A DNA stretch of 64,000 bases from Eledone cirrhosa. Lineage: Eukaryota. The notes beneath the pieces are model-generated. The model was not told the origin of the DNA and ran no database searches. It saw nothing but the letters and a program-made list of their open reading frames with translations. Positions 8,439 through 37,974 of the stretch are shown one piece after another; within the stretch, counting starts at the first letter, position 1, and every line of letters begins with the position of its first letter. Where the stretch lies: the NCBI GenBank assembly GCA_964016885.1, contig OZ024740.1:154628001-154692000 (forward strand), read 5' to 3'. Both the position numbers and the translations under genes were made by a program.

Positions 8439-8522
8439 GTCAGGATGGCCGAGCGGTCTAAGGCGCTGCGTTCAGGTCGCAGTCGGGTTTTCCCGGCGTG
8501 GGTTCGAATCCCACTTCTGACA
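8439..8522 (+). tRNA. trnL-CAG: tRNA-Leu, anticodon CAG
   Basis: Acceptor stem GTCAGGA/TTCTGAC(A), D-arm TGGCCGAGCGGTCTAAGG, anticodon arm CTGCG-TTCAGGT-CGCAG (CAG at 8473-8475), long variable arm CGGG-TTTT-CCCG, T-arm GTGGG-TTCGAAT-CCCAC. Confidence 0.95.
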
Positions 8523-10670: not shown

Positions 10671-10746
<76 letters not shown>

Positions 10747-10775
10747 AAAGAATAGAGGTGTAACACACAAGTTAT

Positions 10776-11161
10776 TATATATTGGTAAACGGAATAGAAA
10801 ATGCTGACAAGTTGTTCACAGTTGAAAAATGGTTTAATTAGGAATAAAAGAGTATTAGTAATTGTATGGGTTAGTATTCAGTTGTGGTTTTAAGTTTTTA
10901 AGTTTTTACCGGTTGCGCATTTCTAAATGCTTTTCAAAAATAATTTTGAGATAGAGTGTCCGTGTTGTTTGCCACGGACACTCTATCTCAAAATTATTTT
11001 TGAAAAGCATTTAGAAATGCGCAACCGGTAAAAACTTAAAAACTTAAAACCACAACTGAATACTAACCCATACAATTACTAATACTCTTTTATTCCTAAT
11101 TAAACCATTTTTCAACTGTGAACAATTTGTCAGCATTTTCTATTCCGTTTACCAATATATA
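10776..11161. repeat. Near-perfect ~190 bp-arm palindrome with 8-nt loop
   Basis: 10776-10964 is the reverse complement of 10973-11161; loop TTGTTTGC. Confidence 0.95.
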
Positions 11162-11170
11162 TATATATAT

Positions 11171-11700
11171 ATATTGTTATACTTGGGGAGGGTCATATTG
11201 TTGTAATAATATTGCCAGAAATAATAACTGTTTCTACTTTAGGCACAAGGCCAGCAATTACCCAGTGCGTTACTGGTACTTTATTTCATCGACCCCGTAA
11301 GGATGAAAGGCAAAGTCAACCTCGGCGGGATTGCCAGAAATAATAACAGAACACACTCACTGTTTGGTTGGTTTTCACTTCTGCATCTTTTATATCTCCA
11401 TAGTTAATTTATTTGGCAATCAATGTTTATCATTGACTGTGCAACGAAAGAATTTTGTTAGACTATATATATATATTTATATCTGTATTTTTAACCGTTG
11501 GTCAGTCAATGATAAATATTGATTGCCAAATAAATTAACTATGGAGATATAAAAGATGCAGAAGCGAAAACCAACCAAACAGTGAGTGTGTTCAGTCATT
11601 ATTTCTGGCAATATTATTACAATAATATGACCCTCCCCAAGTATAACAATATTTGTATCGACACACGATTTCATATCAAAAACCTCGCAAAAATAAAAAA
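11171..11700. mobile_element. Fold-back element (ATATTGTTATACTT-GGGAGGGTCAT family) with a SINE inserted in its left arm
   Basis: Arms about 11171-11438 and 11503-11652 are inverted. A minus-strand SINE fragment at about 11229-11330 is flanked by the duplication TTGCCAGAAATAATAAC. Confidence 0.85.
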
Positions 11701-11727
11701 TTAATAATTATATATCTATATATATGG

Positions 11728-11997
11728 GCGATAAAATAAAGTACCAATCTAGTACTGATGTCAATAAAATAAATTACCAATCAAGTACCTATGTCGATAA
11801 AATAAAGTACCAATCTAGTACTGAGGTTGACAAAATAAAGTACCAATCTAATACTGAGGTTGACAAAATAAAGTACCAATCTAGTACTGAGGTCAATAAA
11901 ATAAAGTACCAATCTAGTACTGAGGTCAATAAAATAAAGTACCAATCTAGTACTGAGGTCAATAAAATAAAGTACCAATCTAGTACTGAGGTTGATT
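11728..11997 (+). repeat. 33-bp minisatellite, about 8 copies, derived from the SINE core
   Basis: Unit GTCAATAAAATAAAGTACCAATCTAGTACTGAG matches the SINE segment GTCGATAAAATAAAGTACCAGT. Confidence 0.85.
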
Positions 11998-12481
11998 TAA
12001 TTGAAATATTTAGAAATTATTATAATCCAACCAGAAATAGAAATCTACGAGAATTTGCGATTTCCCCCACCTGTAGGACGAAAATGATAGGAATATTAAA
12101 ATCACTGCACTCAGATCATATCGTTCTTGATATTTTTAATGCTTTTTATAACAATTTTATGGCGTTAGTAGAGGTTAAATGGGAAATTTTATTGGAATAT
12201 TAATTCGGCCAGGTTGTTAGAAGACGAAATAATAAATATATATTCTTGACTTGTGACTAGGAAATTATATTCTCTAGTATAAAATGCATTCGATACACGG
12301 TCGAAATTTTAAACTGTTTCATTGAACATAAATTTGATTAGTATTTTCATATCTAAAAATATAGAAAAATATATATACTAACATAGCACCTGTCGAAAAT
12401 AGGGGAGTGTATTATAAAAAAAATATGTGAAAACACTTGAAATGTCCGAATTTTCCTTGATTTTTGTAAACTTCAATCAGC

Positions 12482-12789: not shown

Positions 12790-13195
12790 GGCATAGGGTT
12801 ACGGCCATTTACGATCTGAGTTCAAATCCTGCCGAGGTTAGCTTTGCCTTTCATCCTTACGGGGCCGATAAAATAAAGTACCTGTAATGCACTAAGGTCA
12901 ATTTAATCGTAAAAGGTTTATAGTTCCTGGTGGAGTCTTGGGCATTTAAAACCTGGCGGGCCCCATATCTCTCCAGGTCGGGACACAGCCGATTTCTTCC
13001 GAAGAAAAAGATAACGAGGGAGAAAGGGAGATAAAAAAGAGGAAGAATCGACCCCCGTACTAGATTAGTACTTTATTTATAGACCTCGAAAGGGAGAAAG
13101 GTACAGTTGACCTCGGCAGGATTTGAACTCAGGGAGCAGAGAGCCGGAACAAATACCATAAAGCATTCTCTTCGACGTTCTAACGACTCTGCCAA
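12790..13195. mobile_element. SINE fragments: + strand 12790-12910 and a divergent subfamily on the - strand 13045-13195
   Basis: B box and core matches. Confidence 0.7.
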
Positions 13196-13460: not shown

Positions 13461-13699
13461 ATAGGAAAAAGTATGACCCCGATGGCAGAGTTCAAGCCGT
13501 TTCGACGGCTATTTCTGGACTAAATTAGAATTTTTAGCCTGGTGAATAAATAGCCATTGAAATAGCCAGAAATAGCCGTCGAAACGGCTTGAGCTCTGCC
13601 GTCGGGGTCATACTTTTTCCTATTTCCCACTCTACTACCCTAAGTATTGAGTACTCTGGTGCGTTATGGACCATCTGGTTCCTTTCCACATTTCCTTTG

Positions 13700-13700
<1 letters not shown>
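13461..13700. repeat. (TA)n-flanked interspersed repeat with a 58-bp inverted duplication
   Basis: 13461-13518 is inverted at 13566-13623. A single-arm copy lies at 37809-37950 and diverged relatives at about 53700-53820 and 62030-62060. Confidence 0.75.
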
Positions 13701-13751
<51 letters not shown>

Positions 13752-13790
13752 ATATTAAATAAATGGAAACTATATTTATAAAACCACATT

Positions 13791-13854
13791 TATTTTATTA
13801 TATATATTTCAAGGGTACCAAGACAACATTGGTACGCTTTCATCAGATAAAATA
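13791..13854 (-). ncRNA. Minimal type I hammerhead ribozyme, left pLTR
   Basis: Minus strand reads TATTTTAT-CTGATGA-AAGCGTACCAA..TTGGTACCCTT-GAAA-TATATA-TA-ATAAAATA: stems I and II, intact core, palindromic stem III. Confidence 0.85.
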
Positions 13855-14894
13855 CAAACTTTGTTTTATAAATAGAGACATACCCATGAAAATCATACCT
13901 TATCGGTTGGAAATTCACTGGATAGTGGAAATATATTAGGTATTATTCAAACTTATGTGTGAATATGCAAATGAATATGTAAATAATTGAAAAACAACCG
14001 TTTATTTAAACGACACTGGAGAAAGAGAGGGAGAAGATATAAGGGGAGAAAGATAAAAAATAGTACGAGAGAGAGAGAGAAGAAATAAACAAGAGAGGAT
14101 GAATAAAACTCATATAACGTTAATTTGGGGGAAATATATTCTAAGTATATATCTTAATAGTACGTGTATTTACGATTATTAGTTGTTTAAAATCCGTTTA
14201 TAATATAATATTTTCTGTTATAAGTAGATAAATAAATAAATAAATAAATAAATAAAAATAAATAAATAAATAGATAAATAAATAAATAGATGGGTATATC
14301 ATGTTATAGATAATTGTTTTAATGAGTTATGGGGGATATTGGTTTTGTATTTAATGTAAGTAAATATTAAGTTAAATTAAATTAAATTAACTGAGTTAAT
14401 AAGAATATTTACATTTATATATTTTAAGATATATTTTATATATATATATTTTATATATTTTAAGATACGGAAAAACTCCCGTTTAATTTATTTATTCGTT
14501 AGTATGAGACTATTTAGTCAAAATAAGTATAAATGTTGAAAGATATATTTAGCCAGAGTCAGTTAGTGGTTATAAATCTAATAAAAAATATTGAAAAAAT
14601 ATTAAAAATTTGAGAAAATTTTTTTTTTAATAATTTATAAGAGATAAGTAATTTTTAAAAGAAATAAAAATTAAGGAATAAAAATAAAGAGTTAAAAATT
14701 ATTAAGATTAAAATTACAATTAAAATTAAAATAAAAAAAAAAATTAGAATTATATATGTATATATTTTATGAAACTTTAAGAAGTGGAATTATAGCAAAT
14801 GTTATAGATATTATGATTTAGAGATATCAATATATTAAAACCAAGTGGATAAGATTGTTATGGAAATAAGTAGAAATATTATAAGTATAATTAT

Positions 14895-16270
14895 AATTTA
14901 TATATATTTCTGAAAGTTGAATTCAGGCGATGTCTACAAGAATTAAATAAATTCGTTCTTAGATTAATAGAGTTCTTACATTTGTATGAAAAAAATTTCC
15001 TCAACACACAATTTTCAAAATCTAGATAAAGCTGTGTTTCGGTACGCGGGTGCTTTCGAAACTATTTCCCAAGTTAATGAATAGTCCATATTCTTGCATT
15101 TTAAGTTCCATATCAGGTTTGAAAGAGAAGTTGAAGATTTTTTATCAAATCTTTGGAGAGAGCATTTGTGATTATTCCAGCGACTTTTAAATTCTGTAGA
15201 AGTTGCACCTACATAGTTAAATATATTATCACTGGTTTTGACTGTACATTTATAGACCACGTCCTTATTTAAACACTTATTTTGTAAAGGACAGTTTGAT
15301 TTAATTCTACAGTTACATTTTGCGGAGTTGTTGTTATTCAGAACGGTACTATTATGTTGGATATTGCTAGAGATATTACTGCTATTTTGGTTATTTTGGT
15401 TAGGATTTAAATTTCTATTATTAATTCTATTTATATGTTGTGCTATGTTCATAGTAGTAGAGTAGGATAGTTTTATAGTATGTCTGTTAAAGATTCAGTG
15501 GTATCTGTGGGCTTTAGGAAAACATTTATCTAGTGCTTTAAAGAATAGCTTTGCTAAAGGTGTTTTTACGCTTAATGAGAATGGGGGTGAGTACCAAATA
15601 ATATTTCTAGTTCTATTTCTTTTGTTAGTTTTAGAGTTTAAGTTAAATTTTTTATTATAATTATAATTAATAGTAGGGTTATACCTTATTACTGTTTTCG
15701 ATGTATTTAATCTTATTTATATAGCCTGCTCTATTTAAAGCTTCATTATAATATTTTGCCTTATCGTCAAAAATGTTTTTATTGGCGGAGATGCGTGAAA
15801 TGCGTTGTTGGATAGAATTGACAATAGTGTTCTTGATAGATCTAGGATGATTAGAGTTAAAACTTACATAGTTTAGATTCTCATTAATTTTATGGAATTG
15901 ATAGTAGAGCCCTGTGTTAAGGTTTAATGTTACGTCTAAAAAGTTAACAATGTTATAGTTATTCTCTATTTCTAACTTAAGATTGAAGCTATTGAAGAAT
16001 TGTATTGTGGATTTTCTTTTCCTATTAATTTCACAATTACTATGATTTTCAATTAAAAGCAGCATATCATCACGATATAAACCACCGGTCAACTCTGGTA
16101 TTTTCCTATGCAGTGTATTATTAATAAATAAGATCCGTTATTTGCGCCGAGTCTGATGATCCCATGGCGATATCAAAATTATTTTTTCTATCGGCTCTAG
16201 TCCAGAGATGATTGTTAAATTCAATTAAAGTTTTCTGTGCAGTTAAAATCATATGCATTTCTTCGCTAGA
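14895..16270 (-). pseudogene. Penelope RT C-terminus plus GIY-YIG endonuclease, interrupted
   Basis: ORF pieces 16121-16270, 15679-16092 and 15015-15452, and a C-terminal NSCRHR in a shifted frame near 14925-14945. Confidence 0.85.
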
Positions 16271-16430
16271 TGGAACGGTACTAACGAGGTTATAGATTGG
16301 TTCAATAACATAAAATTTAAACATAACAAAAAATTCATTCAATTTGATATTGCAGACTACTACTCTTCTATTACTCCTAATTTACTTAATAAAGCTCTTA
16401 TCTATGCATCTAAACATACAGATTTATCTC
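16268..16430 (+). pseudogene. Inverted upstream RT segment of the same Penelope element
   Basis: Reads WNGTNEVIDWF..FIQFDIADYYSSIT..HTDLS, which continues into SEEMHMILTAQK on the opposite strand. Confidence 0.8.
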
Positions 16431-16943
16431 TAAATCATAATATCTATAACATTTGCTATAATTCCACTTCTTAAAGTTTCACAAAATATATACATATATA
16501 ATTCTAATTTTTTTTTTATTGTAATTTTAATCTTAATAATTTTTAACTCTTTATTTTTATTCCTTAATTTTTATTTCTTTTAAAAATTACTTATCTCTTA
16601 TAAATTATTTAAAAAAGAAAAATTTTCTCAAATTTTTAATATTTTTTCAATATTTTTTATTAGATTTATAACCACTAACTGATTCTGGCTAAATATATCT
16701 TTCAACATTTATACTTATTTTGACTAAATAGTCTCATACTAACGCATGAATAAATTAAACTGAAGTTTTTCCGTATCTTCCCATTTAAAAATATATAAAT
16801 ATAAATATTCTTATTAACTCAGTTAATTTAATTTAATTTAACTTAATATTTACTTACATTAAATACAAAACCAATATCCCTCATAATTCATTAAAACAAT
16901 TATCTATAACATAATATACCCATCTATTTATTTATTTATCTAT

Positions 16944-16978
<35 letters not shown>

Positions 16979-17345
16979 CTTATAACAGAAAATATTATAT
17001 TATAAACAAATTTTAAACAACTAATAATCGTAAATACACGTACTATTAAGATATATACTTAGAATATATTTCCCCCAAATTAACGTTATATGAGTTTTAT
17101 TCATCCTCTCTTGTTTATTTCTTCTCTCTCTCTCGTACTATTTTTTATCTTTCTCCCCTTATATCTTCCTCTCTCTTTCTCCAGTGTCGTTTAAATAAAC
17201 GGTTGTTTTTCAATTATTTACATATTTATTTGCATATTCACACATAAGTTTGAATAATACCTAATATATTTCCACTATCCAGTGAATTTCCAACCGATAA
17301 GGTATGATTTTCATGGGTATGTCTCTATTTATAAAACAAACTTTG

Positions 17346-17410
17346 TATTTTATCTGATGAAAGCGTACCAATGTTGTCTTTCGTACCCTTGAAATATATA
17401 TAATAAAATA
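17346..17410 (+). ncRNA. Minimal type I hammerhead ribozyme, right pLTR
   Basis: TATTTTAT-CTGATGA(17354-17360)-stem II-GAAA(17391-17394)-TATATA-TA-ATAAAATA. Confidence 0.8.
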
Positions 17411-17544
17411 AATGTGGTTTTATAAATATAGTTTCCATTTATTTAATATCATTGAATATTTACTCCAGTTATATGTTGAGTGCTCTAAATCAGTTATAAA
17501 CATTTATATTTGTCGGACTTCCAACAAATTAAATACCCCTTCTA

Positions 17545-17637
<93 letters not shown>

Positions 17638-19099: not shown

Positions 19100-19560
19100 T
19101 CATAATTAAATTTATTCAGGTGTCACTCGCGTTTCGCTCAAGATACGATCCGTATCGATCAGGCCCGACACTGGAATCAATAGCTCATCAGACTCGTGGT
19201 TCCCTTAATGACGGGAGATATCCACGTACAGCTTTAAATTGCCATTTTTCATTCACTTGAGGTGTTCTGTTGTTCTTTGTTTTGAATGTTTGGTTGCAGG
19301 GAGAATAGAGTAGAGAAGAGGTAGGGAAGAAAGAAAAGTAAGAGGAATGGGGGAGGAAAGAGGAATGAGCGAGGAAAGAAAGAAAAGCAGAAAGAGAATA
19401 AGGATAAGAAGGGGTTGAGGTGTGGTATTGAGCACGGCAAGTGTCTCAAAGTCCCTAACCTATTATTGTTTATGCTAGCTATGTGTCGGGCTATGTAGCG
19501 CATGGTGGAGTATGAGAGCTTTACTGTGTGCCTGTTCAAATCTTAAGAGTACCATAAGAT
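19100..19560 (-). mobile_element. Second Penelope-like remnant with a hammerhead-like 3' end
   Basis: NRHTVKLSYSTMRYIARHI matches NRHTIKLSYSTTMNIAQHI of the 13.7-17.4 kb element. CTGATGA-GCT..AGC-GAAACGCG lies at about 19125-19198 on the minus strand. Confidence 0.65.
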
Positions 19561-37812: not shown

Positions 37813-37974
37813 AAAAAGTATGACCCCGATGGCAGAGCTCAAGCCGTTTCGACGGCTATTTCTGGTCCTATTACCCGCTCTACTACCCTAAGTATTGAGT
37901 ACTCTGGTGCGTTATGGTCCATCTGGTTCCTTACCTCAATTCTTTCGTTATATATTATATATATATATATATAT

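What the first reader, a model, noticed from the sequence alone, without database searches (positions are those of the whole stretch)
13747..17454. Penelope element with ~1 kb inverted pseudo-LTRs, each carrying an outward-facing hammerhead ribozyme
Both arms contain an intact hammerhead core (13791-13854 minus, 17346-17410 plus) with an 8-bp stem I and a palindromic TATATA stem III, the form known to cleave as a dimer. Transcription in either direction would meet one ribozyme and could fold into about 1 kb of dsRNA. It shows the same architecture as the small fold-backs but with RT and GIY-YIG sequence attached.
Basis: partly seen in the sequence, partly recalled or inferred. Interest (0 to 1): 0.7.

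Follow-up and report, generated by a model that had tools for sequence, protein, structure and literature searches.

The report
Two-armed dead Hydra-type Penelope retroelement
This is a broken copy of a known kind of jumping gene (a Hydra-type Penelope element) whose mirror-image ends, each with a hammerhead-shaped RNA, were likely written into a TA repeat from both sides at once; the layout is ordinary for this group, but an inverted piece inside it hints that both copies were made from one RNA molecule.

Summary
Observation confirmed: ~1.03-kb inverted arms (24 differences in 1,021 columns), each with an outward-facing type I hammerhead core at the stated coordinates. The element is a 5'-truncated, frameshifted Hydra-clade Penelope-like element (CxCx5C linker, no CCHH, DKT, (TA)n target), one of thousands of termini in this genome. 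An inverted 5' copy with a hammerhead on each strand is published for Hydra-clade Penelope-13_HM.

The right arm runs on into a 92-nt tail (true end 17546). A 160-nt RT piece (16270-16429) is inverted and abuts the main copy's start. Family-wide, paired arms end one long, one short (22 of 22; 18 of 21), each end 7-8 nt before a twin hairpin. This fits priming from both target strands at two RNA sites.

The proposed function is not supported. A read-through RNA would bury the ribozyme in the arm duplex, holds only one sense copy (no cis dimer), and 69 of 80 arms were copied through the cut site. No RNA data were available. The scan's unreviewed notes report the same two-arm footprint elsewhere in this genome.

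The parts
13701..13746 (.). (TA)n target, left side
   Evidence: sequence
13747..14826 (-). Left arm: 3' non-coding end of the main (direct) copy, stopping at the family's 'short' terminus 52 nt after the hammerhead cut site
   Evidence: 2,225 exact short-end matches in the genome
13791..13854 (-). Type I hammerhead motif, predicted cut between 13799 and 13798 (after AUA)
14891..15330 (-). CxCx5C linker and GIY-YIG endonuclease without CCHH, with C-terminal CxxC/CxH region split by frameshifts (limits approximate)
15330..16271 (-). 5'-truncated RT (from just after motif A through motif B, YRDD, thumb), broken into three reading frames
   Evidence: tblastn against near-intact copy P0002
16270..16429 (+). 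Inverted 160-nt RT piece (W..T.EVI.WF to motif A). In colinear copies it directly precedes the start of the main copy, overlapping it by 4 nt. Joined by AT (2 nt) to the main copy and by TATCT (5 nt) to the right arm
   Evidence: the native colinear joint is also seen in contigs of 3 of 4 public runs
16425..17454 (+). Right arm: inverted copy of the 3' non-coding end
17346..17410 (+). Type I hammerhead motif with damaged stem II, predicted cut between 17402 and 17403
17455..17546 (+). 92-nt tail, present on this arm only. In tandem copies it runs on into the 5' leader of the ORF
   Evidence: 1,276 exact read-through matches in the genome
17462..17481 (+). Bulged hairpin motif (ACTC..TTGAGT) 7 nt after the short terminus; a twin (GCTC..TTGAGC) lies 8 nt after the long terminus in tandem copies
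17547..17632 (.). (TA)n target, right side
   Evidence: sequence

Best explanation
This is a dead, 5'-truncated Hydra-clade Penelope-like retrotransposon whose two arms were likely made in one insertion, when both cut strands of a (TA)n repeat primed reverse transcription at two fixed sites on the element's RNA. Shown: the anatomy, the clade motifs, the two termini 92 nt apart, and the one-long/one-short pairing across the family. Inferred: one cDNA began at the short site and ran about 2.5 kb into the RT gene (13747-16271). The other began at the long site, copied tail plus 1.03 kb (17546-16425), jumped through TATCT to the point where the first cDNA ended, and copied 160 nt more. The two 3' ends were then joined head to head. 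The hammerheads are passengers of the 3' end: kept under selection in active lineages, but not cut in most templates that were copied, and predicted to be silenced in this locus by the arm duplex.
For: Clade motifs in family copies: DK.NNLY in 15 of 39, CxCx5C in 29 of 39, CxxC-E in 28 of 39, SCRH in 32 of 39, RW.AF in 8 of 39 (most copies are 5'-truncated or broken), matching the Hydra definition (PMC8557442 section 11; printed alignment, compared by eye). End pairing in 80 loci picked only by a terminus match: of 40 short-anchored loci 22 had an inverted partner and all 22 were long-ended; of 40 long-anchored loci 18 had short, 3 long, 1 intermediate, 18 none (Fisher p 2e-9). In the 40 ORF-bearing loci, all 16 with both ends typed were one long, one short (my count). 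The window arms are each other's nearest of 37 long copies and share 3 variants found in 0 of 35 others; both other loci with two long arms (L047, L061) also pair in the tree. The inverted RT piece overlaps the main copy's start by 4 nt; L042 (gap 7 nt) and L051 (overlap about 42 nt) show similar adjacency. PAc protein cuts and extends both target strands, starts at two internal RNA sites that bound the tail, and does not need ribozyme cleavage (PMC11167929).
Against: No intermediate or RNA was observed. Copy L050 is almost as close to each arm (25 differences) as the arms are to each other (24), and gene conversion could also make arms alike. In a 185-nt block several own-arm pairs rank poorly (for example L066, L138, L049), partly because the block runs past short arms. 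L119 is a long/long pair, and 36 of 80 loci show no inverted terminus in 4 kb. Three other inverted internal pieces (L033, L048, L083) do not abut the main copy. The two locus-specific joints did not appear among the listed contig joints, so an assembly error there is not excluded by reads. The in vitro work is on a Poseidon element with a 30-40-nt tail; this tail is 92 nt.
Confidence: 0.72

Rival explanations
1. Two separate RNAs (dual priming), or a second insertion into the first, gave the two arms; the inverted RT piece came from a later microhomology deletion in a once longer inverted arm.
For: Both arms cover the same 1.03 kb, so on one RNA the second RT must displace the first cDNA. A TATCT microhomology flanks the missing 1.44 kb. 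Microhomology deletions in Penelope copies (PMC3846280) and dual priming for L1 (PMC2837659) are described.
Against: The deletion would have to end within 4 nt of the main copy's start. Independent insertions do not predict 22 of 22 opposite end types or shared private variants. Two RNAs bound by one dimeric enzyme would still fit the end pairing.
Confidence: 0.18
2. One reading: the inverted, ribozyme-bearing arms are a working unit that is transcribed both ways, self-cleaves and yields about 1 kb of dsRNA.
For: Both cores are intact, the motif is conserved and covaries across subfamilies, and a read-through RNA is predicted to form more than 1,000 arm-arm pairs. Small RNAs from Penelope copies are reported in rotifers (PMC3846280).
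Against: The duplex would bury 63 of 64-65 ribozyme bases. There is one sense ribozyme per transcript. The right stem II is damaged. Each arm carries 12 private changes, as for neutral decay. Minimal animal PLE hammerheads showed no monomer and low dimer cleavage (PMC4209133).
Confidence: 0.06
3. The inverted arm arose by self-priming or fold-back on an antisense template, as proposed for rotifer Penelopes with palindromes at the inverted junction.
For: Head-to-head geometry matches that model (PMC3846280 discussion passage); one small fold-back in the window has an 8-nt spacer.
Against: Here the arms are separated by 1.6 kb of unique sequence with no palindrome at the joint, and the inner ends of paired arms usually differ. 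The model does not predict opposite end types.
Confidence: 0.04

Closest known systems
Hydra clade of C-terminal EN+ Penelope-like elements (Craig et al. 2021, PMC8557442), especially Repbase Penelope-13_HM
   Same: RT then GIY-YIG; RWx, DKT, CxCx5C, CxxC and CxH motifs; no CCHH; (TA)n target; hammerhead near the 3' end. Penelope-13_HM is listed with a 5'-truncated inverted copy (nt 1-966) and a hammerhead on both strands (supplement files S1/S2).
   Different: A separate family: its hammerhead sequence matches none of the listed Hydra motifs, including Hydra-1_Obim (by eye). The unit is about 3.46 kb against 'generally <3 kb', the tail is 92 nt against 30-40 nt, and stem III is ATATATAT.
Poseidon element PAc of Anolis (Frangieh et al. 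2024, PMC11167929)
   Same: AT-rich target, two termini bounding a tail downstream of the hammerhead, copies made from uncut RNA.
   Different: Different clade. In PAc the start sites lie 111-118 nt inside the ORF; here both termini lie upstream of the ATG. The parts I read do not explain inverted arms.
Minimal PLE hammerheads (Cervera and de la Pena 2014, PMC4209133)
   Same: Type I topology, short palindromic helix III, location in the terminal repeat.
   Different: The pair next to the core in stem II is A-U rather than the conserved G10.1-C11.1, stem I is 8 A-U pairs, and the two copies lie on opposite strands, not in tandem.
L1 twin priming (described in PMC2837659)
   Same: Two primers from the two target strands; an inverted piece lying next to the start of the non-inverted piece; short microhomologies.
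   Different: L1 primes at poly(A) plus a variable internal site and makes target duplications. Here both starts are fixed, the arms overlap by 1 kb, and (TA)n hides any duplication. It works like twin priming but is not an L1.

Membership tests
Hydra-clade PLE | Single ORF with RT and C-terminal GIY-YIG | tested here: met
   689- and 699-aa open frames in L034 and L040; window pieces map onto them in order
Hydra-clade PLE | CxCx5C linker motif | tested here: met
   CNCRIKSNC in the window; 29 of 39 other copies
Hydra-clade PLE | CCHH motif absent from the endonuclease | tested here: met
   VVYKCTVKTSDNIFNYVG has one Cys, no CxxC
Hydra-clade PLE | DKT and RWK motifs in the N-terminal part | tested here: met
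   Lost from the window copy. Family copies have DKTNNLY (15 of 39) and RWR/RWC, with R for K (8 of 39 match RW.AF); homologs have RWK
Hydra-clade PLE | C-terminal CxxC and CxH | tested here: met
   28 and 32 of 39 copies; split by frameshifts in the window
Hydra-clade PLE | Hammerhead near the 3' end and insertion in (TA)n | tested here: met
Hydra-clade PLE | Generally shorter than 3 kb | tested here: not met
   Unit of L038 is 3,456 nt; the paper gives this as a tendency, and lists one member of 3,045 nt
Hydra-clade PLE | Placement in an RT tree with named references | not tested
   No named PLE proteins came from the sequence tools; compared by eye with the printed alignment only
Naiad/Chlamys PLE | N-terminal GIY-YIG, no canonical hammerhead | tested here: not met
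   Endonuclease is C-terminal and a hammerhead is present
Neptune and Penelope/Poseidon PLE | CCHH motif in the endonuclease, DKG motif | tested here: not met
   No CCHH; DKT
Type I hammerhead ribozyme | Conserved core and three helices | tested here: met
   Core intact in 117 of 147 copies, mean column conservation 0.976 against 0.867 for stem II and loop, but 0.967 for the downstream flank; 6 of 20 pairs change on both sides in 16 hand-picked copies
Type I hammerhead ribozyme | G10.1-C11.1 closing pair | tested here: not met
   A-U in 10 of 16, G-U in 3, unpaired in 3
Type I hammerhead ribozyme | Self-cleavage | not testable with these tools
   Needs an in vitro assay; 1 of 80 arms starts within 3 nt of the cut

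The most novel reading that the evidence does not exclude
This locus is a fossil of two reverse transcriptases working on one RNA: each starts 7-8 nt before one of two twin hairpins, and the trailing one overtakes, then jumps to the exact spot where the leading one stopped. Inverted pseudo-LTRs and the one-sided tail of Penelope-like elements would then be the routine product of a dimeric enzyme priming both strands of the cut target.
Probability: 0.45. Interest if true: 0.6.

Novelty: new member of a known kind. Interest (0 to 1): 0.3.

Why it matters
The layout itself is published. How inverted pseudo-LTRs and the one-sided tail form is still called an open question (PMC8557442 discussion passages). 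This family offers thousands of insertions with two sharp termini and a strict long/short pairing, plus near-intact ORFs, so the two-strand priming model can be tested by genome census and in vitro.

Tried and rejected
Rfam scan: no hammerhead match at E<=1. Pfam: no family for the near-intact proteins P0001-P0003. PDB sequence search with a 17-sequence profile: 0 hits. Homolog search: 38 proteins at 30-46% identity, none named. Sequencing runs: no RNA holder listed; contigs of four runs showed the native colinear joint but no listed piece for the locus-specific joints, which proves nothing either way. Search of earlier notes by sequence: nothing. Rejected: DNA transposon or MITE with terminal inverted repeats (arms vary in length and are 3' ends of an RT element); inversion of the spacer by recombination between arms (only 160 nt of the 1.6-kb spacer is flipped); hammerhead cut as the element's end (termini lie 52 and 144 nt downstream). 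Clusters of inner ends at 17273 and 17292 were set aside as likely subfamily alignment limits, since such loci share upstream flanks. One search was swamped by TA matches and redone with masking. Paper searches listed no paper that applies twin priming to Penelope-like elements; I saw only listings for most, and subscription papers are not covered. An Octopus vulgaris repeat paper (PMC13282606, passages) has no mention of Hydra or hammerheads; I looked at it on a recalled resemblance, and the host was not identified.

Full report
Observation. The arms are real: 13747-14826 and 16425-17454, 92.5% by gapped BLAST and 24 differences in 1,021 gap-free columns. Each has an outward-facing type I hammerhead core with an 8-bp stem I, an ATATATAT stem III and an AUA triplet. 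They were the only two hits of my descriptor in the window; 30 shuffles gave none. Rfam did not detect them. The right motif has a damaged stem II and is predicted to misfold.

Identity. The window lies in a 3.0-Gb genome. A search with the coding part scored 40 of 6,516 candidates and returned the window plus 39 copies at 91-96%; I fetched all 39 with long flanks. Two hold open frames of 689 and 699 aa. The protein has RT followed by GIY-YIG, with DKT, a CxCx5C linker, no CCHH, and C-terminal CxxC and CxH. These are the features that define the Hydra clade (PMC8557442: passages, section 11 and parts of the supplement seen). No tree with named references was built. The window copy lacks about the first third of the ORF and is broken into four pieces, so it cannot be autonomous. 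That supplement lists Penelope-13_HM with an inverted 5' copy of 966 nt and a hammerhead on each strand, the same layout as here.

The right copy continues 92 nt to 17546 and then meets (TA)n; the left stops at 13747 without this tail. In eight copies that run on past the long end, the tail leads into the 5' leader, and in seven of them an ATG follows. Bases 16270-16429 encode the RT segment around motif A on the plus strand. In other copies this segment directly precedes the point where the window's main copy begins, with a 4-nt overlap; contigs of 3 of 4 public runs, from one sample, show that native joint. The window joints carry 2-nt and 5-nt microhomologies.

Family pattern. Exact patterns found 2,225 short ends abutting TA and 1,276 read-throughs into the tail, with 0 control matches. 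I took the first 41 listed short sites less one already held, and the first 45 long sites less five that were partners of those short sites. Of 40 short anchors, 22 had an inverted partner, all long-ended, and 18 had none. Of 40 long anchors, 18 had short partners, 3 long, 1 intermediate and 18 none. Two of the three long/long cases (L112, L122) are distant partners about 80% alike, probably older insertions, and L122 also has an adjacent short partner; L119 is a true exception. Fisher p is 2e-9. Among the 40 ORF-bearing loci, 16 had both contiguous ends typed and all were one long, one short (my count; non-contiguous diverged pieces in L042, L056 and L063 were left out). Most sampled fold-backs are 150-450 nt, so the window element is a long member of an ordinary series. 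Following a lead from earlier scan notes, I found a bulged hairpin motif 7 nt after the short end and its twin, with an A-T to G-C swap, 8 nt after the long end. The Hydra-2_Amil consensus printed ends with a similar motif (seen by eye). Its predicted stability is low (-3 to -4 kcal/mol) and its role is inferred.

One event. The two arms are mutual nearest neighbours among 37 long copies, share 3 variants absent from 35 others, and each has 12 private changes; L047 and L061 arms also pair. The margin over L050 is one difference, and gene conversion is not excluded.

Ribozyme. The core is intact in 117 of 147 copies and better kept than stem II, though about equal to the downstream flank. In 16 copies that I picked to span subfamilies, 6 of 20 pairs change on both sides; relatedness inflates this control. 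So the motif is likely under selection in active lineages. It does not set the ends: termini lie 52 and 144 nt past the cut, 69 of 80 arms span it and 1 starts within 3 nt of it. This agrees with PAc, where ribozyme mutants still insert and the ribozyme needs protein (PMC11167929, parts 1-2 of 4 read). Minimal animal PLE hammerheads cleaved poorly as dimers and not as monomers (PMC4209133, passages); 1 of 9 Xenopus retrozyme dimers cleaved (bioRxiv 10.64898/2026.07.22.740005, passages). A 2017 paper on dimer-cleaving PLE hammerheads is recalled only and was not seen. In this locus a read-through RNA has one sense ribozyme, predicted to be almost wholly paired with the other arm, so dsRNA and cleavage exclude each other.

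Mechanism. Shown: anatomy, end types, pairing, adjacency. From the literature: a PLE protein can cut and extend both target strands and start at two internal sites. Inferred: both strands of the cut (TA)n primed, one at each site; the long-site cDNA jumped to where the short-site cDNA ended, which is simplest on one RNA. Three of six inverted internal pieces seen (window, L042, L051) land beside the partner's start; L033, L048 and L083 do not. L1 twin and dual priming are the models for comparison (PMC2837659, passages); rotifer Penelopes were explained by self-priming instead (PMC3846280, passages).

Small fold-backs. Those at 10745-11161 and 13463-13700 belong to other repeat families with the same one-sided tail. 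They and the one at 11330-11612 carry no hammerhead core.

Verdict. A new family member of a known clade in a published arrangement; interest 0.3. The end-pairing rule and the inverted RT piece give modest mechanistic value, and earlier unreviewed notes of this scan reached the two-ended reading on other DNA of this genome. The bioRxiv supplements were not seen.

Noticed in passing
window 10745-11161: Fold-back of a very young family (39 other scored copies nearly identical over 221 nt) with a ~31-nt one-sided tail and no hammerhead. One of 11 other fetched loci (L156:1-588) has an upstream GIY-YIG frame with CCHH-type Cys/His, suggesting a Neptune-like PLE; the link is not proven.
   Followed up: partly
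window 13463-13700: Fold-back of another family, 58-nt arms plus ~80-nt tail, in the same TA tract as the element's left end. It carries the same hairpin motif at 13629, about 8 nt after its short end, so it is likely another Hydra-type end; the motif recurs at 37877.
   Followed up: partly
window 19120-19540, minus strand: Decayed second Hydra-like fragment: linker-region peptide (HMM E 4.5e-4) followed by a hammerhead-like core whose cleavage position appears to be G.
   Followed up: partly
L040:4718-4787, L088:4131-4199, L135:1801-1865: Older subfamilies (about 80% identical) share both termini and the hammerhead core but have rewritten stem II; several sit next to younger copies in the same TA tracts.
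   Followed up: partly
L039 and L047 (G000 C28 and C1): Both near-full-length direct copies begin at the same position inside the tail, a possible RNA 5' end.
   Followed up: no
window 8439-8522: tRNA (Rfam 54.6 bits) with a long variable arm.
   Followed up: no
window 11697-12026: 33-nt tandem array related to a SINE-like repeat also seen near 12863.
   Followed up: no
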